Source of the DNA: an uncultured Ignavibacteria bacterium
GTDB taxonomy: Bacteria > Bacteroidota > Ignavibacteria > UBA10030 > UBA6906
Reading direction: 5' to 3'
NCBI GenBank assembly: GCA_963701735.1
Contig: CAVPBI010000022.1
Location: 72,604 to 136,603, forward strand
DNA length: 64,000 nucleotides
Shown: positions 11,701-50,324 of the stretch, piece by piece
How the letters are laid out: each line of letters starts with the position of its first letter
Numbering within the stretch: position 1 is the stretch's first letter
Program-made: the position numbers and the translations under genes
The notes under the pieces: model-generated
Seen by the model: only the letters and a program-made list of their open reading frames with translations
What the model was told of the DNA's origin: nothing
Database searches by the model: none

Positions 11701-13489
11701 TCATTGCTCTTGTCTGCCCTCCGCCTCCTTTGGATAGACTCTGTCTGCCTCCAGCGTGCGCCGCGCCAGATCGGGATTGATGCTGGACACGGCATCATAT
11801 TGGGTCAGGTGGACCTTGCCGGTCAGCTCTTCCAGGAAGTGCGATCGCTTCAGGCGGTCCATGACCGGGCCTTTCACCTCGGACAGGTGGAGGGTGATCC
11901 CGCCGTCCTTGAGCCGGTGGTTGATCGCCTCGAGGCTTTCCAGCGCCGAGGCGTCGATCGTGTTCACCGCCGGGCACTCGAGGATGACGTGGCGGACCGC
12001 CGGGTTGGCCGCGACCGCCTCGTTGATCTAGGTCCTCGATGAAACGGGCGTTCGGGAAATAGAGACTGGCGTCCACCCGGAGCGACAGGATCTCGGGGTC
12101 GGTCACCACCGTGTGGCGGTTCACGTTGCGGAAATGCGTCGGTCCCCGGGATCTGGCCCACGACCGCCACATGCGGCTTCGACGTGTGGTAGAGGTGGAG
12201 GAAGATCGAGAGACCCACGCCCGCCAACAGCCCCGCCTCCACGCCCTCGACCAGAGTGAGGAGGATCGTGGCGGCCATCGCCGCGCCGTCGGCCCGGGAA
12301 TAATGCCAGGTGTGCTTGAGGGCGCCGAGGTCCACCAGCGACAGGACCGCGACAATGATGGTGGCGGCCAGGGTCGCGTTCGGGAGAAAGTAAGCAGCGG
12401 CGTCAGAAACATCGTGGCGAGCGCGATGCCGACCGCTGTGAAGGCCCCGGCGGCGGGGGTCTCGGCGCCGGCTTCGAAGTTCACCACCGAACGCGCGAAG
12501 CCGCCGGTGACCGGAAATCCGCCCGAGACGGCCGCGCCGACATTGGACATGCCGAGCGCGATCAGTTCCTGGTCGGGGTCCACGCGCTGGCGGCGCTTGG
12601 CGGCGAGCGTCAGGGCGACCGAGATGGACTCCACATAGCCCACGATGGAGATCAGCAGCGCGGGGACAAGGAGCTTCGTCCAGAGCGCCACGTCGAACGG
12701 CGGCAGGGTGAGCTTCGGGCAGGCCCGTGGGGACCGTGCCGACGATCTTGACGCCGTGCTCGGTAAGCCCGAAGCCCCAGACGGCGGCGGTGGTCGCGGC
12801 GATGGCCACGACCGGGCCCACCTTCGCCAGGATGTCGGCGGGCCGTTCGCCGAGCCCGAAGCGGCGCAAGAGGGGCTTGAGGCCGCGGCGCACCCAGAAG
12901 AGAAAGGCCAGCGACGCGAAGCCGATCACCGCGGTATAGGGATTGATGTGGCCGAGGTTGGGCACCATCGATTTCAGCAGGTCCACAAAGCTCTCGCCCT
13001 CCGCGTGGATGCCGAGCACGGGCGCGAGCTGGCCGGCCGCGATCTGGATGCCCGAGGCGGTGATGAAGCCCGAGATGACCGGGTGGCTGAGGAAGTTCGC
13101 GAGAAACCCCAGCCGCAGCAGCCCCATGGCGAGCAGCAGCAGTCCCGAGATGGCGGCGAGCGCGATGGCCGCCCCCAGATACTCCGGCGTTCCCTGGGAC
13201 GCGACCTGTGCCGCGGCGGCCGCGGTCATGAGGCTGGCCACGGCCACGGGGCCGACCGCGAGCGCGCGCGAGGTGCCGAAGATCGCGTAGAGCACGAGCG
13301 GCGCCATCGAGGCATACAGCCCGACCTGCGGCGGGAGCCCCGCCAGCAGCGCATAGGCCAGCGACTGCGGGATCAGCATGACCGTGACAATCCCCGCCAC
13401 GATCAGGTCGTTGGTGAACGTCTTGCGGGAGTACTCGGCCCCCCAGGTCAGGATCGGGAAATAGCGGCGGACCAGGCGGGGGATGTTCA
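11701..13489 (-). CDS. SulP-family sulfate/anion permease with C-terminal STAS domain; frame disrupted at about 12700 and 11970
   Basis: N-terminus MNIPRLVRRYFPILTWGAEYSRKTFTNDLIVAGIVTVMLIPQSLAYALLAGLPP (SulP signature). A middle segment sits in the 11795-12691 ORF. The C-terminal STAS domain is in the 11701-11967 ORF. Confidence 0.8.
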
Positions 13490-37479: not shown

Positions 37480-38822
37480 TCAGTCGTTGCCGCGGGCCGA
37501 GCGCTCGGCGTCGGGTGCGGTGCGGGCCTCGAACTCAGCATTCTTGCCTTCGACGGCGCTGCGCATCTCAACCGGCACCTTCGCCCCGAGGAACGCACGC
37601 TCTGCCACGGGAAGCGAGCCGAGCACTTCCGCCTTCTGGCTCACCGGCATACGATCGAACGACTTCAGCCGCTCTTCAACCGACATGCTGGCAGCGAGAA
37701 CCGCGCGCCCTTCGGCGGGAAGCCGGTCCAGCACAGCAAGCCTCTCGGCTCTGCGGCAGCCTGTCGAGAGCGCTGATCTTCGCTTCGGCCGGCATCCGAT
37801 CCCACATGCTGACCTTGGCTTCGGTGGGCATCCTGTCGAGCGCCTTGGCACGCTCGGTGTTGACCATCTTCTCGGCTACGAGCGCCTTGGCTTCGGTCGA
37901 CATGTTGTCGAGCGCCGAGGCGCGCTCTGCAACGCTGCTGGTCGCCGCCAGCTGGGCTTTGGCTTCCGCCGGGGCATAATTCTGAAGCGCAGCCGCCTTG
38001 TCGTTCATCGCAAGACGATCAAGATACGCCGCCTTCTCCGTCGCCGGCAGGCTGGCAAAGGCCTTGACCCGGTCCGCCATCGCCAGACGGTCGACCAGGC
38101 TCGCCTTCTCGTTGACCGGCATTGCGGCCAGGGCCCTGGTCCGATCGGTCATCGCCAGGCGGTCCCACATCGCAACGCGCTCAGTGGCCGACGTTGAGGC
38201 ATACAGGGCAGCACGCTGCGTGCTTCCCATCCGGTCCATCAACGCCGTCCGCTCTTCCACGCTCATACGGTCGGCCAGGGCGGCCTTGTCGCTGGCGCTC
38301 AGCTGCGCGAACCGCTGCGCGGCCGCATCGGTGGCATCGGCGCCGGCGATCTGGACGTCGTTCTCGGTGATCTGCCCGGAACGGTATTTCTTCACGCTGC
38401 CGATCGTTCCGGCCGCCTCGTTTTCAAACGGGGACGGATAGAAGAATGTGAAGTAGGCGAGCGTGGCGATCCCGAGTGCGATCCCCGCCAAGGGCGATCC
38501 GGTTCCGCTTGGCGTTGCTACGGTTGCTCATAACAGCCTCCACTGGAGATGGTGTGTGTGCAAGAGAATTCAAAATCTGTTGGAGCATGGTCCGTCGGCG
38601 CGGCACCGGCATCCGTTCGACTGCCCGCATCACCGACGGCTTCAGTGTCGGAGGCGCGGCAGCCGGCTGGCTCAGGGCGCCCGCGATCGCCTTCATGTCA
38701 TTGTACAGTCTCGCAACCTCGGCATCCTCCCGCACCAGCACCTGTACCCTGGCACTCTCCGCGGGACTGTTGATGCCGTCAACCTCCGACTGCACAAGGT
38801 CTCGTATCGTCTGATCAATCAT
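37480..38822 (-). CDS. Anti-sigma factor (membrane-spanning) with periplasmic 12-aa tandem-repeat domain; frame disrupted at about 38460 and 37860
   Basis: The start overlaps the ECF sigma gene stop. N-terminal cytoplasmic part MIDQTIRDLVQSEVDG…. Transmembrane helix IALGIATLAYFTFFY. Then more than 20 repeats of [LM]DR[LM]xxxE[KR]Axx. Confidence 0.55.
37560..38290 (-). repeat. Intragenic approximately 36-bp tandem repeats (coding 12-aa units) within the anti-sigma gene
   Basis: DNA units such as ggcttcggtgggcatcctgtcgagcgccttggcacgctc and ggcttcggtcgacatgttgtcgagcgccgaggcgcgctc recur. The protein shows …ALADRMSVEERTALMDRMGSTQRAALY…LDRLAMNDKAAAL…LDRMPTEAKVSMWDRMPAEAKISALDRLP. Confidence 0.7.
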
Positions 38823-39351
38823 GGCCCGATAATCCTTCCCGACTCATTATCTCTCGCAACATCGCCCGCGCGCTGAACAACCGCGACTTCACCGTCTTTG
38901 CCGGAATCCCGAGGATCGCTCCGATCTCCTCGTACGGCAACTCCTGCACATACTTCAGGACAAGGATCGAGCGATGATGGACGTCCAGCTTCGAGAGGCA
39001 CTTCTGGACGAGCTCCGGAAGGTCCGGGCTTTCCGCGTGCCCGTCTGCCGACTCGAGCCCTTCATCCAGCGCCTGCATCCGTGACCGTCGCTCAATCGCA
39101 TTGACTGACTCATTGTGCGCTATGCGGTAGATCCAGCTGAAGAACTTGTACCTGGGATCGAACGTGCTGAGCTTTTCGTACGCCTTGAGAAACGCCGCCT
39201 GCGCAACATCCTCAGCCTCTTCCTTCACTCCGAGCATCCGCCAGGCGATCGTGAACACCTGTGCCTGGTATCGCTCCACCAGCAGCCCGAAGGCATCCCG
39301 ATCGCCCTCAAGGGTCCGCTGGACCAGCCCGTTGTCGTCCAGGTGTATCAT
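38815..39351 (-). CDS. RNA polymerase ECF-type sigma-70 factor
   Basis: Region 2 …FGLLVERYQAQVFTIAWRMLG…. Region 4 …LVLKYVQELPYEEIGAILGIPAKTVKSRL. Confidence 0.85.
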   Translation of the reverse strand: MIHLDDNGLVQRTLEGDRDAFGLLVERYQAQVFTIAWRMLGVKEEAEDVAQAAFLKAYEKLSTFDPRYKFFSWIYRIAHNESVNAIERRSRMQALDEGLESADGHAESPDLPELVQKCLSKLDVHHRSILVLKYVQELPYEEIGAILGIPAKTVKSRLFSARAMLREIMSREGLSGHD

Positions 39352-39381
39352 AAGTACAGGCGTGACCCGGAAAAGTTGGTC

Positions 39382-39672
39382 CTATTCTTCCTCAATCCTG
39401 AAAATCGTGTCGAATCTGGCGATCCTGAAGACGTCGCGGATGAGCTTGTTCATGTGGGTCAGAACCAGCTCGTTTCCACCTGATTTCAAGCGTTTCTGAG
39501 TCTTCAGGAGGATCCCCAGGCCCAGGCTGGAGATGTAGTCCAGGTTCTTCATGTCAACCCGGCTGGTCGTCGTGACACGGTCGAGGACGGCATCCGCTTC
39601 GGCCACGCGGGACGCGTCGAATCTGCCCGTGAGGACGATCTCCCCATCTTCCCTCTGGGTAATCGTGAACAT
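39382..39672 (-). CDS. STAS-domain anti-sigma-factor antagonist (SpoIIAA/RsbV-like)
   Basis: 96 aa. …VDMKNLDYISSLGLGILL… carries a candidate phospho-serine in the DYISS motif. Confidence 0.75.
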   Translation of the reverse strand: MFTITQREDGEIVLTGRFDASRVAEADAVLDRVTTTSRVDMKNLDYISSLGLGILLKTQKRLKSGGNELVLTHMNKLIRDVFRIARFDTIFRIEEE

Positions 39673-39673
39673 G

Positions 39674-40120
39674 CTACTGCCTCAGACGTTTGACAAGCGT
39701 GATGGTGCTGCGGCGGTCTTCATAGGCGTACCGAACGTCGTCCAGCATGTGCCGCGACAGGTGAATGCCCAGGCCGCCCGGCGTTCGCTCCTCCAGCGAC
39801 AGCGACACGTCCACCGGACCGGTGGCGGTGACGTCGAAGGAATTCACGTCACGCGCGACGAGGTACACGACGAGCGCTTCCCCTTCCAGCCGGACCCCGA
39901 CGGTGACGTCGCGATCGCTCTCCGGATTGTACTTCACGAAATTCGTGAAGAACTCTTCCACCGCGAGCGTGAGAGCGTACGAGGTGGCCGGGTCGGGAGC
40001 GTGCCGGGCAAACTCCCCGTCGAGGAACGCAAACACCTCGTCGAGGGCTGCGACGGACTTCCTGAAGTCTTTCTCCATGATGGGATCTCGGCACCAGCCT
40101 GCGCGTGCCCGGTCGCTCAA
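39674..40120 (-). CDS. Anti-sigma regulatory factor, serine-protein kinase (RsbW/SpoIIAB-like HATPase_c)
   Basis: 148 aa. …ALTLAVEEFFTNFVKYN… (N-box-like) and …ERTPGGLGIHL… (G2). Lies 2 bp downstream of the STAS gene and its start overlaps the SIMPL gene stop by 4 bp. Confidence 0.7.
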   Translation of the reverse strand: MSDRARAGWCRDPIMEKDFRKSVAALDEVFAFLDGEFARHAPDPATSYALTLAVEEFFTNFVKYNPESDRDVTVGVRLEGEALVVYLVARDVNSFDVTATGPVDVSLSLEERTPGGLGIHLSRHMLDDVRYAYEDRRSTITLVKRLRQ

Positions 40121-40836
40121 TCGACGAGATAAAACTCGATGCTCGTGACGACGCGGATGAGCTTCACGTCGGGTGAATTCGCATCCCGGTTGCTGATCGA
40201 AAAGTACCCCTGCGTCGCGGAGCGGATCTTCCCGACCTCGCTCCCCGAGTCCGTCGCGAATTTCTCCGCCGCCGCCCGTGCGTCCTTCGTCGCCGATTCT
40301 ATCATCTCAGGCTTGATCACATTGAGCGCGGTATAGATGAACTCCGTCGGCGTCTGCCAGTTGTCAGCGGTCAACGCGACGCCCTTCCCCACCAGCGCGC
40401 CCGACTTCTCCATCGTTTGCTTTACACGATCCACATTGTCGGAGCGCGTCGTCACCGTCACGTCCGCGACATACCGGTACCGGGTCACAACGTTGGAGCC
40501 GAACGCCTGCGTGTCGTTGATGCGCGGGACCGAGTAGGAAATCGATTCTTGCTGGAAGCCCGCGTCGCGGAGGAACGAGGTCACCGCCGCCCGTCCCGCA
40601 TCGATGTCACGCTGCAGTGCGCCGAGATCGTTCCCGGTCACCCTGAACGTGATCGGCCAGATGGCAAGGTCGGCCTTGACTTCCCGCTCGGCCAGCCCTT
40701 TGACCGTCACGAACCGGTCGGACGCCCGGCCTTTGTAGATGCCGAGTCCGATCGCAATACCAGCACAGACAATGCACAGCCCTAGAATGACGTGAGGGGT
40801 AAGACCTTTTGTTTCCACAGCTTCCTCCGGACGCAT
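40117..40836 (-). CDS. SIMPL-domain protein (DUF541)
   Basis: 239 aa with an N-terminal transmembrane/signal segment. …ADLAIWPITFRVTGNDLGALQRDIDAGRAAVTSFL… is typical of the SIMPL family. Confidence 0.65.
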   Translation of the reverse strand: MRPEEAVETKGLTPHVILGLCIVCAGIAIGLGIYKGRASDRFVTVKGLAEREVKADLAIWPITFRVTGNDLGALQRDIDAGRAAVTSFLRDAGFQQESISYSVPRINDTQAFGSNVVTRYRYVADVTVTTRSDNVDRVKQTMEKSGALVGKGVALTADNWQTPTEFIYTALNVIKPEMIESATKDARAAAEKFATDSGSEVGKIRSATQGYFSISNRDANSPDVKLIRVVTSIEFYLVD

Positions 40837-43614: not shown

Positions 43615-44700
43615 ATGCAAATCGGAATCGTCGGCCTCCCGTTCTCGGGCAAATCCACCCTGTTTCAGGCCATCACAAGAACGCACCTTGACCCCTCGGC
43701 CCTCGCACGCACCGAGGCGCATCACGCCGTGGTCAAGGTCCCTGACCGGCGACTGACCGCGCTGTCCGAGCTCTTCTCGCCGAAGAGCACCGTCAACGCC
43801 ACCATCGAGTTTGTGGATGTCGTCGGCCTGAAGAAGGGGGAGTCCGGCTCGGCGCAGTTCACCACCAACTTCCTGGCCAGCGTCAAAACCAACGACGCGC
43901 TGGTCCAGGTCGTGCGTGCGTTCGCGAACGATGCGGTCCCGCATCCGGAAGGCTCCGTGGATGTCGCGCGCGACATCGCGACGTTCGAGACCGAGTTCAT
44001 CCTGTCGGACATGGCGATCCTCGAAACGCGCATCGAGCGGCTGAAGAAACAGGTCATGAAGGCGGGAGACGAAACAGCAAAGAAGGAGCTTGGCATCCTC
44101 GAACGGTGCCTCGCCGCGCTGACCGGGGAGAAGCCGCTGCGCGACATCGGGTTCTCGAAGGACGAGTCGCTCGTTCTCAAAACGTATCAGCTGCTCACCT
44201 CCAAGCCCATGCTCGTCGCGCTGAACTTCGACGAATCCCAGCAGCCGAAGGCCGCGAGCATCGTGGACGGAATCACACTCGCGAAGGGGACGCCGAACAC
44301 CGGCATCGTGGGGTTTTTCGGGAAGATCGACATGGAAATGTCCGAGCTCTCAGAGTCTGAGGCAGGAGTGTTCATGAAGGAGTACGGCATCACGGAGTCC
44401 GCGCTCGACACGCTCATCCGTTCGTCGTACGATCTCCTGGGGCTTCACTCGTTCTTCACCGTCGGCGAAGACGAGTGCCGGGCGTGGACGATCCGCAAGG
44501 GGATGACAGCACAGGAAGCTGCCGGAGTGATCCACTCGGACTTCTTCAACAAATTCATCCGCGCAGAGGTCGTCTCCTACGATCACTTCATGGCCGCCGC
44601 CGGCTCGTTCGCGAAGGCGAAGGAGGCGGGGCACTGGAGGCTTGAGGGAAAAGAATACGTCGTGAAGGACGGGGACATCCTCTCGATCAGGCACAGCTGA
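43615..44700 (+). CDS. ychF: Ribosome-binding ATPase YchF (Obg-like GTPase family)
   Basis: MQIGIVGLPFSGKSTLFQAIT (G1 motif), TGS domain and C-terminal …EYVVKDGDILSIRHS. Confidence 0.9.
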   Translation: MQIGIVGLPFSGKSTLFQAITRTHLDPSALARTEAHHAVVKVPDRRLTALSELFSPKSTVNATIEFVDVVGLKKGESGSAQFTTNFLASVKTNDALVQVVRAFANDAVPHPEGSVDVARDIATFETEFILSDMAILETRIERLKKQVMKAGDETAKKELGILERCLAALTGEKPLRDIGFSKDESLVLKTYQLLTSKPMLVALNFDESQQPKAASIVDGITLAKGTPNTGIVGFFGKIDMEMSELSESEAGVFMKEYGITESALDTLIRSSYDLLGLHSFFTVGEDECRAWTIRKGMTAQEAAGVIHSDFFNKFIRAEVVSYDHFMAAAGSFAKAKEAGHWRLEGKEYVVKDGDILSIRHS

Positions 44701-44777
44701 GGACGTGCCATCAGATACAGCTGCGCGGAGCGGTGCCTTCCGACGAGGCGGCTGCTCAGCCGCCCCCGGATGAGGCG

Positions 44778-45595
44778 CTACCTGCCTGAGGACCAGCTTC
44801 CGCTGCGGTCCGAGACCCAGGAATCCATCTTGCCGCTCGCGCGCTTCTTCTTCTTGACCGCAAAGACGATCTTCTTCCCTTTGCCGCGGCGCTGATTCCG
44901 GCCGGGCCCCGGAGGACCTCCCCACGTGGCCGATCGCTTGCCAGGAAAACCTGATGCTGGCCGCTGTCCGGGAAAGCCCGTGGACGGTCGATGACCAGGA
45001 GGACCTCCTGCAGGACGCTGCCCGGGGTATCCAGATCCGGGCCGACGACCAGGGGGACCTCCTGCGGGCCGCTGACCGGGGTATCCAATTCCAGGCCGTC
45101 GACCGGGAGGACCTCCTGCGGGGCGCTGCCCGGGGTATCCAATTCCGGGCCGCTGACCGGGAGGACCTCCTGCGGGGCGATATCCTGGGTATCCAGTTCC
45201 GGGCCTGTGTCCCGGATGCCCTCCCCCAGGCCGCTGCCCGGGATGGCGCGGATGTTTATGCCCTGGATGCTGGTTCACGGGTCGACCCGGACCGCCGGGC
45301 GCGTTCGGCTGCTGCTGGCCCGCCTGCCGCCCGTGAGGCTGACCCGGATGTCTCGGTCCCGTGCCGCGGCCGCGCCCCGGCGACTGGGATTGCCTCTCCC
45401 CCCGAACGGAGGAGTACCGTGCCGTCCGTGGTGAGGACCGGAGGACTGCTTACCCTGCGGCCGCTCGTACATGCCGACGAAATCGTTCGTCGGCTGGAGC
45501 TGCGGAGGTTCCGGGCGTCCCTGAGGAGGCATGGCCTGGGAATGCCCCGGCTTCTTTCTGCGGGGACCGAATTTTCCAGGACCTGGAAATGCCAT
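44778..45595 (-). CDS. Pro/Gly/Arg-rich tandem-repeat protein with Lys-rich C-terminus, hypothetical; strand and frame uncertain, may be one gene with a frame disruption at 45275
   Basis: 18-aa repeats GYPGQRPAGGPPGRRPGI occur five or more times. The non-repeat C-terminal part …GKGKKIVFAVKKKKRASGK uses high-GC codons (AAG, GTC, GCG), which supports the minus strand there. A competing plus-strand ORF 44954-45685 (repeat DREDLLRGAARGIQFRAA) has higher third-position GC within the repeat. Confidence 0.35.
44990..45240. repeat. 54-bp tandem repeat (about 4.5 units)
   Basis: gggaggacctcctgcggggcgctgcccggggtatccaattccgggccgctgacc-like units with minor variation. Confidence 0.7.
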
Positions 45596-45921
45596 GACGA
45601 TACCTTGGTGATGTGCGTGGATATGCCCCGTGCGACCAGCCGCAAGGTGCGGTCTGGATGCCGGTCAATGGTGATGATTGAGTAATACGCCTACTGCGCG
45701 TGGTCGGCGGAGAAGTTAACTCATTTCTGGGGTGGACTCAGCATCATCCCCTGCTGAAAGGTCAGCGAGGCGGTCGTCGGCTGGGGTGTGTTTTCCCGAA
45801 CAACACTGTAGTAATGTAGGGCTTTCACTCGAGATTTCCTAATCCCCTCACCGGCCTTCTTTGCTTTTGAGGACGCCCGGGAGTATGTTGACGGGGTCCC
45901 GACATCAACGCACTCAGCGCC

Positions 45922-47242
45922 ATGCGTCAGCCAGAAATACCCGCCTTCCTCGCGTCCGTCGCAGCTGTGACAATTGGGTTGGGAGCGCTGCACGTCCTTC
46001 CACTCCACCCCGCCGCAGCCCTCGCGTTGGTCTTCATCGGCTCCTCGGCGGCATACCTGTGGATGTGCCGGGAAACCCTCCGGGCCGGATTGTCAGACGG
46101 GCTGGTCTGGACCACGCTCGGGCTCGGCATCCTGATCAGGCTGTCGTTCTTCTCGAGCGACCCGGTCGGTTCGGATGACGTCTACCGCTACGTGTGGGAC
46201 GGGAAGGTCCAGGCGGCAGGAATCAATCCGTACCGCTATGCGCCGGACGACCCCGCGCTGGCAGAACCTGCACTCGTCGCTGTTGCCCGGGGCGGTCAAT
46301 CACCCCGATATGAAGACCGTCTACTTCCCCTTCTCCCAGTGGCTCTTCCTTCTCGCATTTCGGATCGCGGGGGAGTCGCTGTGGGGACTGAAGGCGATGC
46401 TTCTCGCAGCCGAAGCTGCAACCATGGCGGGACTCCTTCTCCTCCTCTCCCACCTGAAGCTGCCGCGGCGCCTGGTCCTGCTCTATGCCCTGTGTCCTCT
46501 TCCGATTCTCGCGTTCGCGCTGGATGCCCACGTCGACGGCTTCGGGCTGCCTCTCTTCGTTTTCGGGTTGCTGTATCACCTGAGAGGCCGCCCCGCGATC
46601 GGGCTTCTTCTGCTGGGGCTGTCCATGTCGGTGAAGCCCGTCGCGCTCGTCGTGCTCCCGGTCCTGTTCTTTCAGGCTCGCACCGGCACCGACCGGATCC
46701 GGATCGCTGTGCTCCCGCTGGCCGTGGCGCTCCTGCCTTTCGTGCCGTATGCGCTGGAGATCAACCCCCTTGAATCGCTCTCCACGTTCGCCTGGCACTG
46801 GCTGTTCAACGGGCCGTTCTTCGAGCTGGTGCGCGCGTTCGTGCAGGACAATCAGCGCGCGCGACTGATCTGCGCCGCGGCGCTGGGCATCTCGCTCGTC
46901 CTCCTGCAGTTCACGCGCCACGATATTCTTCGAAAGGCAGCCTTCTCCGTCTTTCTCCTCCTGCTCTTCTCGCCCGTCGTCCATCCGTGGTACGTGACGT
47001 GGCTGGTCGTGCTCCTTCCCGTCGTCCCGCTGCGCTCAGGGATGGTCTACGCGGCAAGCGTAAGCCTGGCCATCATCACGCTTGTGGAATACCGACTCAC
47101 GGGTGCGTGGGAGCAACACCCGATCATCCTGGTCCTCGAGTATGCGCCTGTGCTGGCGCTGTTTCTGCCGGAAGTGGCCGGGAAGTTGCGCGTGCGCCTT
47201 CACGAACGCCTGATTCACCGAGATGAGGGCCTGCGTCGATAG
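45922..47242 (+). CDS. GT-C-fold membrane glycosyltransferase (DUF2029/GT87, PIG-M/PimE-like mannosyltransferase family); frame disrupted near 46270
   Basis: …DPVGSDDVYRYVWDGKVQAAGINPYRYAPDDP…NHPDMKTVYFPFSQ (DxD-type periplasmic loop of DUF2029 enzymes), followed by about 9 transmembrane helices. Confidence 0.65.
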
Positions 47243-47379: not shown

Positions 47380-48540
47380 TCACGCGGGCCATGCCTCCGT
47401 AAACAGCGCCTCGCCGCCATCCCTCACGACATCCACTACAGGAACGGAGAGCGCCGCGCGCAGTGCGGTCTGCAATCCAGCCGCATCCACGGTGCTGCCC
47501 GAGTAAACGGTGCCGTCGTAGGCGGGATAGAACGGGTTTGAGGTCACGGCGGCCAGGCGCGGGACACGGCGGCAGATCAGCCGGACTCCAGCCGATCGCG
47601 CAGACGCCACCTTCTCTGCAACGCGGCGGATATCGCCGGCCAGCAAGAGCTTCAGCGGGTCGTCAAACAGCACGGTTGCGCTGCGCCGCCCCAGCGCCGG
47701 TGTCATCGCCGAAAGCAGATCGAGCGCGACAAGCCCCTTCCACCGTACCACACCGGACCCTCCATGGGCGGCCCTGGCCGCTTCTTCCGTGGAGGTCCCG
47801 GCCGTAATAACCGTCCACTCGCTCCGCCCCTCTGACTCCTCTGACTCCTTCGCCTTTCCGTCGTTGCTTTCCTTCACGGCCTCATCTTCCCGTATTCCTT
47901 TCCCTTCTCTCCTCCCCATCGCTTCCCTCGTTCCCTTCCTATCCTTCATCCCTTCCACCCCCTCCTTCCCCGTCTCCCCTCCACCCTCCCCACCCATCCG
48001 AGGAATCCCGAACAGCAACTCGATGGCCTCCATCTCTCCGACAACGGTCCTGAGGTCGGTCGACCTCGCCGCCCCGGTGCTGAACACCAGCCGATCCACC
48101 ACCGCCATCGGCGCGATGCGGTTCAGCGAGCCGTCCACCATCAGCAGCTCGAGCCTCTCATCAGCGAGCATCTGCCTGACCTGCTCGAGCTCGTGCGTCT
48201 TGTTGGGCCCGGCCACAACAAGCAGGCCCGGTGCGGTCACGCGGACGACGACGACTTCGCCCAGCGCCGTCCGGAACCCGGTGCGCCGGAGGCCGGTCCA
48301 TTGTGCGTCGGTGGTCTGAAGGCAGGATTCGGAGGTGGTGACGAGCGCGCCGGCGGGAACGCGGATGCGCGGCTTCGGCAGGAGCGTGACAGTATCCCGC
48401 TCTTCGCCGTCGTACCCGATGCCGGTCAGTCCCAGCGAAAGTCCGCGGCGCGCGGCCTGCTCGAGCAATGCCACCAGCGCCGTCGTCTTTCCGGTGTTCT
48501 TCGCGGTTCCTGCAATGCCGATCGTAATCAGCGCACGGTT
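47380..48540 (-). CDS. P-loop ATPase-domain protein (BioD/CobQ-like nucleotide-binding fold) with internal Glu/Lys/Gly-rich low-complexity insert; possible accessory/reactivase protein of the downstream mutase-like gene
   Basis: …ALITIGIAGTAKNTGKTTALVALLEQAARRGL… is a Walker-A-like GTAKNTGKTT. The insert is …GGEGGGETGKEGVEGMKDRKGTREAMGRREGKGIREDEAVKESNDGKAKESEESEGRSE…. The start codon is unclear (no ATG in frame near the P-loop, so an alternative start is likely). The N-terminal 190 aa of listed ORF 47380-49113 is out-of-frame overlap with the 598-aa upstream gene and is excluded. Confidence 0.5.
   Translation of the reverse strand, partial: NRALITIGIAGTAKNTGKTTALVALLEQAARRGLSLGLTGIGYDGEERDTVTLLPKPRIRVPAGALVTTSESCLQTTDAQWTGLRRTGFRTALGEVVVVRVTAPGLLVVAGPNKTHELEQVRQMLADERLELLMVDGSLNRIAPMAVVDRLVFSTGAARSTDLRTVVGEMEAIELLFGIPRMGGEGGGETGKEGVEGMKDRKGTREAMGRREGKGIREDEAVKESNDGKAKESEESEGRSEWTVITAGTSTEEAARAAHGGSGVVRWKGLVALDLLSAMTPALGRRSATVLFDDPLKLLLAGDIRRVAEKVASARSAGVRLICRRVPRLAAVTSNPFYPAYDGTVYSGSTVDAAGLQTALRAALSVPVVDVVRDGGEALFTEAWPA
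47820..48010. repeat. Approximately 190-bp polypyrimidine (plus strand) / polypurine (coding strand) low-complexity tract
   Basis: ctctgactcctctgactccttcgcctttccgtcgttgctttccttcac…cccttccaccccctccttccccgtctcccctccaccctcccc is almost entirely C/T. It encodes the E/K/G-rich insert of the ATPase. Confidence 0.6.
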
Positions 48541-50324
48541 CCTTTGCCGAACGTCCCCGGATAGGCGCCGTCCTCCGTGTTCCCCAGCAGTCCCGCCTGG
48601 ATGGCATCGGGAAGCGACGGGGCTTCGCTGACGGCCCGGAGCGTGGACGTGATCCCTGCTATCATCTCGTCGGTCGCCTGGTCCGCACCTGCGGTCGGCG
48701 CGAGACCGGCATCGCCGAGAAACCTGTAGGCTTCCGTCACAGCGCGGATGCTGTCGATCCGTGAAGCGATGCAGATCGGGCCGCGCGAGTACGCTTCGTC
48801 GGTCGACGCGATCGTGATCGCATCGACGTCCAGCGTCCTGGCCAGCGCCGCGTGGTAGGATGTGGCGCTGGCCGACTGCACCCGGTCTTCCGACTGCGTC
48901 ATGAACGCGATGGGCTCGCCCGGCCAGATGGGCGCATCCGCGATCGCCCGGAGGGCGCGGATCTTCGCGGTGTTGTAGTCGATGAAGTTCTGCTGCATCA
49001 GGCCGTTGATCACGATATGCGGGCCGTAGCAGAAGAGGGGCTTGAGGATCGGCCGCGCGCCGAGTCGGACGCCCAACGCTACGTTGATGAGCAGGCCGGC
49101 CAGCGTCTTCCATGCGGGGACGCCGCTCAACTCGTCGTTCCCCGGTATGTCGAACGGCATGCCGTAGCGCGCCGTGATCTTGATGGCCTCGATGCCGTCA
49201 ACGGTCAGCCGTTCGGGATCGGTGCCGGCCCCGAGAGAGCCGTACACGAGATTGATCTTCGTCATGTCGGCGCCGCCTTCCCCCGCAAGCACCACGGTCT
49301 CCGGCGTGTTCAGCCCCCGGTGCGCCCGGACGGTCAGGAGCGTCGCGGGATCCAGGTGCCGCCGCATGAGCTTGATGTTCTCCAGCGACGTGATCGTCCC
49401 GTCGTTCTGGTGGGTGAGGGCGCCTTCGAGCAGCCCCTCGTATCGCGCCTCCCAGGAGGGATTGATAATGAGATATCCGTCGATTCCCCAGCGCTCGCCG
49501 ATGCGCCCGTGGACGATGTCCATGATCGGACAGCCGCTTCCGAGGAATTTGAAGACCGCCGGCTTCAGTCCGCTGTGGCGGATCCGCGCCGGATGAACAG
49601 CCGTGCGGCCGGAGAGCATACCGTCGAGAGCCTGCTTCTCCGCCTCGGACACCGCCCGGACGCCGAGGGGATAGGAGGCATTGAGATTCGCATCCCGGAC
49701 GACTGGATCGCAGAGCGCCGCATATCGCTCGGCGACTGCCTTCCCTCCCTCCCCGTGGTGCAGCAGCTCTGCGCGCAGACGGGCGCGCTCGACTGCCGGC
49801 GACGTCTTCCCCGCGCTCCACCGCAGCAGCTTCTCAACAATCGCGTCGAGATAGCCTCCGGCCTCTGGATTCCTGAAGGCGTAGGAATATCCGGCGGTCA
49901 GGTCGCGCTTCTCGCGTTGTGCGGCCCCCGCGGTCGCGGCCGGCGGCCTGTCTTCTATGTATGCGGCGATCTCCTCCATCGTCGCGTGCTCGTCGAATCC
50001 CCGGTCGAATCCCAGCTCCGCCGCCAGCTCCGGTGTCACCGCTTTGCCGCCGATGACAATGCGGGCCGAGGTGCGGATCCCGGCCGCATCAAGCATGTCC
50101 ACAAACCGCCCGAGCAGCTCGGCCACCCCGTAGCCCAGCGTCCGGCTGACGAGGATAAAATCGTAGGGTGACGCCAGGGCCCGGGAGACAATGGCTTCCA
50201 TCGGGAGGTCGGGTGACAGCAGGTCCGCGTGGTGGCCCCGCCGCGACAGGGCATCACGGATGATCTTGATGCCGACGTCGTGGACGGGATCAAGAGGAAC
50301 GCACAGGAGCCGACGCGCGGTCAT
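48528..50324 (-). CDS. Cobalamin-dependent mutase-like protein: N-terminal B12-binding Rossmann domain fused to an approximately 460-aa C-terminal domain (aminomutase/glutamate-mutase-E-like?)
   Basis: N-terminus MTARRLLCVPLDPVHDVGIKIIRDAL contains a DxxHxxG variant of the His-on B12 motif. …ILVSRTLGYG… is the SxL motif and …ARIVIGGKAVTPELAAELGFD… the GG motif. About 460 aa of non-hydrophobic C-terminal domain follows. Confidence 0.7.
   Translation of the reverse strand: MTARRLLCVPLDPVHDVGIKIIRDALSRRGHHADLLSPDLPMEAIVSRALASPYDFILVSRTLGYGVAELLGRFVDMLDAAGIRTSARIVIGGKAVTPELAAELGFDRGFDEHATMEEIAAYIEDRPPAATAGAAQREKRDLTAGYSYAFRNPEAGGYLDAIVEKLLRWSAGKTSPAVERARLRAELLHHGEGGKAVAERYAALCDPVVRDANLNASYPLGVRAVSEAEKQALDGMLSGRTAVHPARIRHSGLKPAVFKFLGSGCPIMDIVHGRIGERWGIDGYLIINPSWEARYEGLLEGALTHQNDGTITSLENIKLMRRHLDPATLLTVRAHRGLNTPETVVLAGEGGADMTKINLVYGSLGAGTDPERLTVDGIEAIKITARYGMPFDIPGNDELSGVPAWKTLAGLLINVALGVRLGARPILKPLFCYGPHIVINGLMQQNFIDYNTAKIRALRAIADAPIWPGEPIAFMTQSEDRVQSASATSYHAALARTLDVDAITIASTDEAYSRGPICIASRIDSIRAVTEAYRFLGDAGLAPTAGADQATDEMIAGITSTLRAVSEAPSLPDAIQAGLLGNTEDGAYPGTFGKGTVR

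What the first reader, a model, noticed from the sequence alone, without database searches (positions are those of the whole stretch)
44778..45685. Tandem 54-bp repeat encoding either an 18-aa Pro/Gly/Arg-rich collagen-like repeat (minus strand) or an 18-aa DREDLLRGAARGIQFRAA repeat (plus strand)
Both strands are open across the repeat. The minus-strand product (GYPGQRPAGGPPGRRPGI x5, then a poly-Lys tail KKIVFAVKKKKRASGK) has convincing high-GC codon usage outside the repeat. The plus-strand product has higher third-position GC inside the repeat. Either way this is a repetitive, probably disordered or surface protein of unknown function between ychF and a GT-C glycosyltransferase. The poly-Lys tail could bind nucleic acid or membrane.
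Basis: seen in the sequence. Interest (0 to 1): 0.5.

Follow-up and report, generated by a model that had tools for sequence, protein, structure and literature searches.

The report
Repeat-rich basic disordered protein gene
The 54-bp repeat is the variable middle of a real minus-strand gene for a small, very basic, probably unstructured protein found only in a few Ignavibacteria-like genomes; the plus-strand reading frame is an artefact of GC-rich sequence, and the function is unknown.

Summary
The repeat is real: TRF finds 4.7 copies of a 54-bp unit at 44989-45242, and four of six frames are open across it. Comparative data settle the strand. The gene lies on the minus strand at 44778-45595, in the Pro/Gly/Arg-rich frame. 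About nine distinct relatives in metagenomes and MAGs encode one continuous 216-290 aa protein. All have the same conserved N-terminus (MAFPGPGKFGPRRKKPG...PTNDFVGMYERP), a variable xPGxRPxxG repeat core and the same C-terminus (GKGKKIVFAVKKKK..GKMDSWVSDRSGSWSSGG). All sit between a GT-C (MptA/B-like) gene and ychF. dN/dS is 0.13-0.28 in this frame and 2.5-5 in the plus-strand DREDLL frame. Indels against the closer relatives are multiples of 3. Copy number differs by exactly one 54-bp unit from a relative that is 94% identical. The window copy is split by a missing base in a G run: G6 at 45398-45403, G7 in relative L009. This is probably an assembly error, because the window has no G/C run of 7 or more. 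The protein is not collagen-like (no G-X-Y register), has pI about 12, has no hydrophobic segment and is predicted disordered. No known family matches. Polyanion or nucleic-acid binding is inferred from composition only. It is an ordinary but uncharacterised orphan repeat protein.

The parts
44778..45595 (-). Whole gene for the basic Pro/Gly/Arg-rich repeat protein. ATG at 45593-45595, stop TAG at 44778-44780. 272 aa after restoring one G.
   Evidence: The reconstructed protein matches P0001-P0004 over 97-100% of its length. Intact single ORFs occur in L002, L003/L008, L004/L005, L007, L009, L010/L011 and L012. dN/dS is 0.13-0.28 in this frame.
45398..45403 (-). G6 run on the coding strand where one base is missing. 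It splits the gene into a 106-aa ORF (45275-45595) and a 166-aa ORF (44778-45278).
   Evidence: The alignment to L007 shows a 1-nt gap here. The window has 25 G/C runs of length 6 and none of 7 or more, against about 5.8 expected.
45404..45595 (-). Conserved N-terminal module: basic box MAFPGPGKFGPRRKKPG, then the PQLQPTNDFVGMYERPQG motif, up to FGG.
   Evidence: These columns are invariant across five sequences. Differences from relatives fall mostly at third codon positions.
45603..45606 (-). Shine-Dalgarno-like AAGG, 7 nt upstream of the ATG.
   Evidence: Conserved in the upstream alignment of 9 loci.
44922..45245 (-). Twelve consecutive 9-aa units of type xPGxRPxxG. This is the variable, low-complexity core.
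   Evidence: Units listed in register. The number of such motifs ranges from 3 to 14 among relatives.
44976..45191 (-). Four 54-bp (18-aa) higher-order units, YPGxRPAGGPPGxRPxxG. This is the tandem repeat of the finding.
   Evidence: TRF array at 44989-45242. Units differ from each other 9/11/48 by codon position 1/2/3. L007 has 5 units, a gap of exactly 54 nt at about 45084.
44778..44924 (-). Conserved C-terminal module: WGGPPGxGRNQRRGKGKKIVFAVKKKKRASGKMDSWVSDRSGSWSSGR, then the stop codon.
   Evidence: Near-invariant in all relatives. GC3 is 0.81 with a gene-like synonymous score. An independent gene caller chose this frame on the Logan contig L001.
44954..45685 (+). Plus-strand 243-aa ORF (DREDLLRGAARGIQFRAA repeat). 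Not a gene; it is an antisense open frame of GC-rich coding sequence.
   Evidence: dN/dS is 2.5-5.0 in this frame. The variable sites are its second codon positions. It has no Pfam hit and is not on record as a called gene.

Best explanation
The 54-bp repeat is the central, length-variable part of one minus-strand protein-coding gene (44778-45595).

**What is shown.**
- The gene encodes a protein of about 270 aa that is extremely basic: pI about 12, 46 Arg+Lys against 6 Asp+Glu, 24% Gly and 20% Pro.
- The protein has no cysteine and no hydrophobic segment, and is predicted to be intrinsically disordered.
- Each 54-bp unit encodes two 9-residue xPGxRPxxG units.
- The array gains and loses whole in-frame units, presumably by slippage or unequal recombination. 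Central-region length therefore differs between close relatives (270, 272 and 290 aa).
- Purifying selection keeps the peptide sequence of the units and, more strongly, of the two terminal modules. These are an N-terminal basic box plus PTNDFVGMYERP, and a C-terminal GKGKKIVFAVKKKK box plus KMDSWVSDRSGSW.
- The family is confined to a narrow Ignavibacteria-like clade. It always lies between a divergently transcribed MptA/B-like GT-C gene and a convergent ychF.

**The frameshift.** The window copy is split by one missing G in a G7 run. This is most likely an assembly homopolymer error rather than biology.

**What is inferred, not shown.**
- The protein stays in the cytoplasm.
- It acts as a flexible polycation that binds polyanions, most plausibly RNA or DNA, through its Arg/Lys clusters.
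- The Pro/Gly repeats serve as an extended, tunable spacer between conserved terminal short motifs that contact partners.

**Confidence by part.** Gene, strand and frame: over 0.95. Disordered polycation: about 0.8. Frameshift is an artefact: about 0.7. Nucleic-acid or polyanion binding: about 0.35.
For: **Homologues and synteny.**
- Homologues of 216-290 aa cover 97-100% of the joined minus-strand product.
- Synteny GT-C | gene | ychF is seen wherever a contig reaches the neighbouring gene.

**Selection in this frame.**
- Frame-agnostic DNA alignments give substitutions by codon position of 9/4/35 (L007), 15/10/61 (L009) and 14/13/65 (L012).
- Indels against the closer relatives are multiples of 3.
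- dN/dS is 0.13-0.28.
- Differences between units within the array are 9/11/48 by codon position.

**Copy number.** The window differs from L007 by exactly one 54-nt unit.

**Protein properties.** Composition, pI and hydropathy are. AlphaFold2 gives mean pLDDT 48.9, pTM 0.11 and no secondary structure.

**Narrow distribution.** Only 3 clusters pass E<1e-10 among 1.84 billion representatives. All other hits match only the low-complexity core.

**Frameshift.**
- There is a 1-nt gap against L007, and L009 has the intact G7 allele.
- The neighbouring GT-C gene also carries a 1-nt frameshift relative to L007.
- The window has no G/C run of 7 or more.
Against: - No experimental or homology-based evidence for any biochemical activity. 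Pfam, NCBIfam, PHROGs, PADLOC and PDB sequence searches are all empty.
- The disorder prediction rests on a 4-sequence alignment.
- Synteny is uninformative because all relatives are closely related.
- Synonymous-codon statistics inside the repeat look non-genic for the true frame: GC3 is 0.45 and the score is -0.35. This is explained by a family-wide preference for GGT/GGA/CCT codons. Avoidance of G/C runs as the cause is an inference.
- The frameshift could be a genuine mutation. No reads were available.
Confidence: 0.6

Rival explanations
1. The frameshift is real. In this strain the gene is a pseudogene. Alternatively, the G6/G7 tract is a slippage-prone switch (phase variation, or transcriptional or translational slippage) that turns the full-length protein on and off.
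For: The tract is a homopolymer inside the ORF, and both G6 (window) and G7 (L009) alleles exist. The repeat region also carries an out-of-frame 85-nt deletion in the NCBI MAG locus L006. The adjacent GT-C gene is also frameshifted in the window, which could mean the locus is decaying.
Against: Eight of nine distinct relatives are intact. L007 has GGAGGGG at this site, so the tract is not conserved as a homopolymer. The window lacks any G/C run of 7 or more, whereas relatives have them, which points to systematic truncation. Apart from the single missing base the reading frame is intact, with no internal stop codon in the repaired ORF. The whole-gene dN/dS of 0.17 against L007 shows no sign of decay.
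Confidence: 0.22
2. The protein is exported and acts outside the cytoplasm as a surface, matrix or adhesive repeat protein. It might be modified by the divergently transcribed GT-C (MptA/B-like) glycosyltransferase.
For: The divergent pairing with the GT-C gene is conserved in every relative that covers it. Pro/Gly/Tyr-rich repeats resemble those of structural or elastomeric proteins (my own knowledge). Copy-number variation is typical of surface proteins.
Against: There is no signal peptide-like or membrane-spanning segment; the N-terminus is MAFPGPGKFGPRRKKPG and the maximum hydropathy is -0.26. No secretion or anchor domain is detected. The repeats contain almost no Ser/Thr acceptor residues. 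Synteny in such a narrow clade carries little weight.
Confidence: 0.1
3. The repeat encodes a bacterial collagen-like protein that forms a triple helix.
For: High Gly and Pro content and tandem repeats.
Against: The longest run of Gly in a G-X-Y register is 2 triplets. There is no hit to Pfam Collagen at E<=1. The period is 9 or 18 residues with irregular Gly spacing.
Confidence: 0.02
4. The plus-strand ORF (44954-45685, DREDLLRGAARGIQFRAA repeat) is the gene, or the repeat is non-coding.
For: The ORF is open for 243 codons, and inside the repeat it has GC3 of 0.82 and a gene-like synonymous score.
Against: dN/dS is 2.5-5 in that frame. Variable sites coincide with its second codon positions. 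The equivalent antisense frame is open in relatives simply because the sense codons (CCN, GGN, CGN, CAG) cannot produce antisense stops. There are no homologues, no Pfam hit and no called gene. A non-coding repeat would not show a 3-periodic substitution pattern or indels only in multiples of 3.
Confidence: 0.01

Closest known systems
Uncharacterised orphan family represented by 'MAG: hypothetical protein H6Q28_696 [Bacteroidetes bacterium]' (GCA_017860485.1) and metagenomic proteins P0001-P0004
   Same: True homologues with 43-65% BLASTP identity (59-75% in the multiple alignment). They share the same N- and C-terminal modules, the same repeat core and the same neighbours.
   Different: The window, L007, L009 and L012 subclade has reorganised the 9-aa units into an 18-aa (54-bp) higher-order repeat with 4-5 copies. 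The other members have only 9-aa units. The window copy is frameshifted.
Bacterial collagen-like proteins (Scl1/Scl2, BclA; Pfam PF01391)
   Same: Gly/Pro-rich tandem repeats whose copy number varies between strains.
   Different: There is no continuous G-X-Y register, no Pfam hit, and no signal peptide, anchor or trimerisation domain. It cannot form a collagen triple helix.
Polycationic low-complexity nucleic-acid-binding proteins or regions of bacteria. Examples are chlamydial Hc1/Hc2, Pseudomonas AlgP KPAA repeats, the mycobacterial HupB C-terminal PAKKA repeats and the disordered N-terminal region of IF-2, which is the label JGI gave P0002.
   Same: Very high positive charge, tandem short repeats, predicted disorder and no enzymatic domain. 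This is a 'works like' analogy drawn from composition and my own knowledge.
   Different: There is no sequence similarity and no HU, H1 or IF-2 domain. Charge is carried mainly by Arg within a Pro/Gly context rather than by Lys/Ala. Binding has not been tested.
Eukaryotic Pro/Gly/Tyr/Gln repeat regions (GYPGQ-type repeats; resilin- or elastin-like elastomeric repeats)
   Same: These were the only other hits of the family profile. They share GYPGQ-like low-complexity units and are expected to be flexible, turn-rich or PPII-rich chains.
   Different: The matches cover only profile positions of about 110-215 and lack the conserved termini. They are not homologous and mostly have different charge.

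Membership tests
Orphan Ignavibacteria-clade family (P0001-P0005, L002-L012) | N-terminal module M[AVS]FPGPGKFGPR..KP ... PQLQPTNDFVG[MV]YERP | tested here: met
   Present at 45404-45595 on the minus strand. These columns are invariant in the alignment.
Orphan Ignavibacteria-clade family (P0001-P0005, L002-L012) | C-terminal module W..PPG.G.NQ..GK.KK[IL]V[FL]A..KKK...GKMDSWVSDRS.S | tested here: met
   Present at 44778-44924 on the minus strand.
Orphan Ignavibacteria-clade family (P0001-P0005, L002-L012) | One continuous ORF of about 216-290 aa | tested here: not met
   The window copy needs one extra G at 45398-45403 to be continuous. This is probably an assembly artefact.
Orphan Ignavibacteria-clade family (P0001-P0005, L002-L012) | Location between an MptA/B-like GT-C gene (divergent) and ychF (convergent) | tested here: met
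Bacterial collagen-like proteins (PF01391) | Uninterrupted (Gly-X-Y)n tract | tested here: not met
   The longest in-register run is 2 triplets.
Bacterial collagen-like proteins (PF01391) | Match to the Pfam Collagen model | tested here: not met
   No Pfam family at E<=0.1 for the window ORFs or at E<=1 for P0001-P0004.
Bacterial collagen-like proteins (PF01391) | Export signal or surface anchor | tested here: not met
   No hydrophobic segment; the maximum 19-residue Kyte-Doolittle value is -0.26. No dedicated signal-peptide predictor was available.
Translation initiation factor IF-2 (JGI label on P0002) | GTPase and IF-2 domains, length over 500 aa | tested here: not met
   The protein is 239 aa with no Pfam or NCBIfam hit. 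The label is a low-complexity artefact.
Histone-like or nucleoid-associated polycationic proteins (Hc1, HU-tail, AlgP type) | Recognisable Hc1, HU or H1-type domain or sequence similarity | tested here: not met
   No family or PDB sequence match.
Histone-like or nucleoid-associated polycationic proteins (Hc1, HU-tail, AlgP type) | Binds DNA or RNA | not testable with these tools
   Only the composition (net charge about +40, pI about 12) suggests it.
Phase-variable contingency gene | Homopolymer tract in the ORF whose length varies within a population | tested here: inconclusive
   G6 in the window against G7 in L009, but GGAGGGG in L007. No reads were available. The window-wide lack of runs of 7 or more favours an artefact.

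The most novel reading that the evidence does not exclude
The family is a clade-specific, polycationic, fully disordered protein. Its conserved terminal motifs dock on cellular partners, and its Pro/Gly/Arg repeat core binds RNA or DNA. It could act as a nucleoid- or RNA-condensing scaffold, with repeat number tuning spacer length. If so, it would be a bacterial nucleic-acid-organising protein with no folded domain and no relation to known nucleoid proteins.
Probability: 0.2. Interest if true: 0.5.

Novelty: new member of a known kind. Interest (0 to 1): 0.25.

Why it matters
Practically, the result fixes an annotation. One real gene at 44778-45595 on the minus strand replaces two fragments and a spurious plus-strand ORF.

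It also gives a clear example of GC3 and codon statistics pointing to the wrong frames. This happens in Gly/Pro-rich repeats of high-GC genomes, where comparative substitution patterns are decisive instead.

The work flags likely homopolymer truncation in this assembly. That would affect other genes in the window.

Biologically, it defines a small orphan family of highly basic, disordered repeat proteins in Ignavibacteria-like bacteria. The family has conserved terminal motifs and a repeat core that changes in length quickly. This is modestly interesting for people who study bacterial disordered proteins, but nothing here points to a new mechanism.

Tried and rejected
**Codon statistics.**
- Codon log-odds and synonymous-codon scores favoured the minus LDTPGS frame and the plus DREDLL frame inside the repeat.
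- I rejected these as misleading once homologues and substitution patterns were available.
- ORF openness in relatives does not discriminate, because 3-5 frames are open everywhere.

**Family and structure searches.**
- Pfam, NCBIfam, PHROGs, PADLOC and the PDB sequence search gave nothing.
- Rfam gave only a sub-threshold chance hit, pRNA at E=0.4.
- No sigma-70-like promoter was found, and the terminator-like hits were at chance level.
- The GC hairpin between ychF and the gene is no more stable than shuffled sequence, z = -0.18.

**Upstream region.** I tested whether the conserved upstream region of about 165 nt is a structured leader. RNAalifold gave a positive covariation term (+0.67) and only 5 of 31 predicted pairs showed a compensatory change, so there is no support.

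**Literature.** A search for the repeat motif returned only PAR4 agonist peptides and collagen IV.

**Gene-collection look-ups.** Exact look-ups of the window's 106-aa, 166-aa and 243-aa ORFs found nothing on record.

**Second homology search.** A word-index search with the N-terminal 121 aa returned only P0005.

**More frameshift evidence.** I looked for further frameshifts at other C6/G6 runs using Pfam. The results were inconclusive.

**Structure search.** Fold search was not run. The model (pLDDT 48.9) is too poor to give meaningful matches.
Full report

Yes. Tandem Repeats Finder reports an array at 44989-45242 with period 54, 4.7 copies, 82% matches and no indels. It also shows a weaker 27-bp sub-period, and the repeat finder gives the same 54/27-nt register.

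Two further frames are also open across the array, minus 44756-45142 and plus 44991-45434.

ychF ends at 44700. A membrane glycosyltransferase-like gene starts at 45922.

**2. Why sequence statistics alone mislead here**

I trained codon tables on 23 long ORFs of the window. Inside the repeat the Pro/Gly-rich frame looks non-genic, with GC3 of 0.45 and a synonymous-codon score of -0.35. True genes average +0.39 and wrong frames average -0.14.

The plus DREDLL frame scores +0.42 and the minus LDTPGS frame scores +0.54, so both look genic. Outside the repeat, the 3' tail of the Pro/Gly frame (44778-44940) does look genic, with GC3 of 0.81 and a score of +0.37.

Openness of frames is also uninformative, because 3-5 frames are open in every relative.

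**3. Homologues decide the strand and the gene limits**

On the minus strand, a 106-aa ORF starts at the ATG at 45595 (MAFPGPGKFGPRRKKPG...). It abuts the 166-aa Pro/Gly ORF in another frame.

I joined the two at a G run and searched. The search returned proteins of 216-249 aa that cover 97-100% of the joined sequence (P0001-P0004, E from 6e-91 to 2e-32). It also returned an NCBI MAG protein, P0005, annotated as a hypothetical protein of a 'Bacteroidetes bacterium'.

All of these share three parts:
- a conserved N-terminus (MAFPGPGKFGPRRKKPG...PQLQPTNDFVGMYERPQG...GRHG..FGG);
- a variable G(H/Y/F)PGQRPxxG core;
- a conserved C-terminus (W.GPPG.GRNQRRGKGKKIVFAVRKKK..GGKMDSWVSDRSGSWSSGG).

Scans of genome and metagenome collections added more intact copies:
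- L007, an 'uncultured Ignavibacteria bacterium' MAG, about 94% identical in DNA to the window over the gene, 290 aa;
- L009 and L012, 270 aa each;
- L010 and L011, 257 aa each;
- L008, which is the same as P0001.

On every contig that reaches the neighbouring gene, the gene lies between a divergently transcribed PF26314 (MptA_B family) GT-C gene and a convergent ychF. On the Logan contig L001, which is 99% identical to the window, an independent gene caller also chose the Pro/Gly frame for the 3' end.

**4. Selection test**

I aligned the DNA without reference to any frame. Substitutions between the window and relatives, counted by codon position 1/2/3 of the Pro/Gly frame, are:

| Relative | Position 1 | Position 2 | Position 3 |
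|---|---|---|---|
| L007 | 9 | 4 | 35 |
| L009 | 15 | 10 | 61 |
| L012 | 14 | 13 | 65 |
| L003 | 36 | 32 | 92 |

- **Indels.** Indels against L007, L009, L012, L003, L004 and L010 are multiples of 3: 54, 6, 24, 72, 27, 45 and similar. The alignment to the most distant relative, L002, also shows two gaps that are not (19 and 8 nt).
- **Inside the repeat block.** The same pattern holds there, for example 6/0/17 against L007.
- **Between units.** The four 54-bp units of the window differ from each other 9/11/48 by codon position.
- **dN/dS.** Nei-Gojobori dN/dS is 0.13-0.28 for the Pro/Gly frame, 2.5-5.0 for the plus DREDLL frame and 1.65-2.75 for the LDTPGS frame.

The repeat is therefore translated in the Pro/Gly/Arg frame and is kept by purifying selection. 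The plus-strand ORF is an antisense artefact.

The low GC3 has a simple cause. In the central Pro/Gly-rich region, 29 of 40 Gly codons are GGT or GGA, against 28% genome-wide, and close relatives show the same bias. A plausible reason is avoidance of long G/C runs. That reason is an inference.

**5. The frameshift**

Relative to L007, the window lacks one base at 45398-45403. The window has G6 on the coding strand where L007 has GGAGGGG. L009 has G7 (CTCGGGGGGGAGAGG), which is exactly the sequence obtained by adding one G to the window. That addition restores ...PPFGGERQSQSPGRG....

Three observations point to assembly error:
- The neighbouring GT-C gene, intact at 429-441 aa in relatives, also carries a 1-nt insertion in the window at about 46265.
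- The window contains 83 G/C runs of length 5 and 25 of length 6, but none of 7 or more. About 5.8 are expected, P about 1e-3.
- Relatives do contain 7-runs: 3 in 31 kb of metagenome and MAG contigs from relatives, and 1 in the 12.8 kb of L007.

This fits systematic truncation of long homopolymers in the assembly. I rate an artefact at about 0.7 and a genuine mutation or switch at about 0.2-0.25. Reads are needed to settle it.

The repeat region is also error-prone or deletion-prone elsewhere. The NCBI MAG copy (L006) is the L004 allele with an 85-nt deletion inside the repeats, which explains its truncated annotation.

**6. Anatomy of the repeat**

The core is twelve consecutive 9-residue units xPGxRPxxG at 44922-45245. 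Units 3-10 form four 18-residue higher-order units, YPGxRPAGGPPGxRPxxG, at 44976-45191.

The 18-aa organisation is confined to the window, L007, L009 and L012 subclade. It has 4, 5, 4 and 4 units respectively. L007 has exactly one 54-nt unit more than the window, and L009 and L012 have a 6-nt deletion. More distant members have only 9-aa units, with 3-8 recognisable copies. L010 and L011 also have a second repeat type.

Total length ranges from 216 to 290 aa, while the termini stay nearly invariant.

**7. What kind of protein is it?**

The repaired protein has these properties:
- pI about 12, with 46 Arg+Lys against 6 Asp+Glu;
- 24% Gly, 20% Pro and 12% Arg;
- GRAVY of -1.48;
- no 19-residue window with positive hydropathy (maximum -0.26), so no signal peptide-like or membrane segment.

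Gly is in a G-X-Y register for at most two triplets, so the protein is not collagen-like. AlphaFold2 on the family alignment gives mean pLDDT 48.9, pTM 0.11 and no secondary structure. This fits intrinsic disorder, with the caveat that the alignment is shallow.

No Pfam, NCBIfam, PHROG, PADLOC or PDB sequence match exists.

A profile search of 1.84 billion cluster representatives finds only three family clusters (E<=3e-53). All other hits (E>=8e-8) match only the low-complexity core. Those I inspected are unrelated low-complexity repeat proteins, several with GYPGQ-type repeats. JGI's name 'translation initiation factor IF-2' for P0002 is therefore a low-complexity artefact.

**8. Most likely mechanism**

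Shown:
- a conserved, selected, disordered polycation;
- two conserved terminal modules;
- a central spacer that changes length in whole units.

Inferred, from composition and from analogy with polycationic bacterial low-complexity proteins (my own knowledge):
- it remains cytoplasmic;
- it binds polyanions, most plausibly RNA or DNA;
- the Pro/Gly repeats act as an extended, flexible spacer;
- the terminal motifs act as docking sites.

I give this functional model only about 0.35.

Rivals are a real frameshift or switch (0.22), an exported and possibly GT-C-modified structural protein (0.1), collagen-like (0.02), and a plus-strand gene or non-coding repeat (0.01).

**9. Regulatory surroundings**

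An SD-like AAGG lies 7 nt upstream of the ATG and is conserved.

The roughly 165 nt upstream are somewhat better conserved than synonymous sites. Identity to distant relatives is 57-71% upstream, against 49-62% at third codon positions. RNAalifold gives no covariation support for a structured leader.

No Rfam family, no sigma-70-like promoter and no significant terminator was found.

**10. Verdict**

It is wrong in three respects: the plus-strand alternative, the collagen-like label and the surface-protein suggestion.

The feature is a new, uncharacterised member of a familiar class, the lineage-restricted low-complexity repeat proteins. Interest is modest at 0.25. The main value lies in the corrected gene model, the caution about codon statistics in Gly/Pro repeats, and the evidence of homopolymer errors in this assembly.

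Noticed in passing
window 45922-47242 (+), indel at about 46265: The MptA/B-like GT-C gene is split into two overlapping ORFs (45922-46773 and 46175-47242). The cause is a 1-nt insertion (GCAGAACCTG against GCAGACCTG in L007). Relatives have one ORF of 418-441 aa.
   Followed up: partly
whole window: Homopolymer length distribution is truncated. There are 83 G/C runs of length 5 and 25 of length 6, but none of 7 or more (about 5.8 expected). Related contigs do contain 7-runs. This suggests systematic homopolymer under-calling, so other genes in the window may carry artificial frameshifts.
   Followed up: partly
window 45596-45760 (minus strand, upstream of the gene); indel at about 45744: The upstream region of about 165 nt is moderately conserved across the family (57-71% identity to distant members) and includes an SD-like AAGG. 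A 71-nt segment present in L002, L003, L004, L007, L010 and L011 is absent from the window, L009 and L012. RNAalifold shows no covariation support for a structured RNA.
   Followed up: partly
L006 3575-4330 (NCBI GCA_017860485.1, JAGDMH010000125.1): The deposited 'hypothetical protein H6Q28_696' (195 aa) is a frameshifted version of the 249-aa L004 protein. The cause is an 85-nt deletion inside the repeat region, which is either assembly collapse or a real deletion.
   Followed up: yes
P0002 (JGI sample 3300075153): JGI names this 239-aa family member 'translation initiation factor IF-2'. It has no IF-2 or GTPase domain, so the name is a low-complexity artefact.
   Followed up: yes
window 11795-12691 (-): The ORF matches only positions 243-338 of the 380-position Sulfate_transp (SulP) model, starting at its residue 6. 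The N-terminal two-thirds of the permease are not in frame upstream. The gene may be truncated or frameshifted.
   Followed up: partly
window 47380-49113 (-), and L007 3242-4102: A DUF1611-like P-loop protein carries an internal Glu/Gly/Lys-rich low-complexity insert (…GGEGGGETGKEGVEGMKDRKGTREAMGRREGKGIREDEAVKESNDGKAKESEESEGRSEW…). The insert is also present, with changes, in L007.
   Followed up: no
window 38815-40836 (-): An operon-like run of four genes: SIMPL/DUF541, HATPase_c_2 (anti-sigma-type kinase), STAS (anti-anti-sigma) and an ECF-type sigma factor. The same run is conserved on the contig that carries P0002.
   Followed up: no
window 44747-44764: A GC-rich inverted repeat (GGCGGCTG..CAGCCGCC) lies in the 77-nt gap between the convergent ychF and the repeat-protein gene. 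There is no U-tract and the fold is no more stable than shuffled sequence (z = -0.18). L001 has a 2-nt deletion in one arm.
   Followed up: yes
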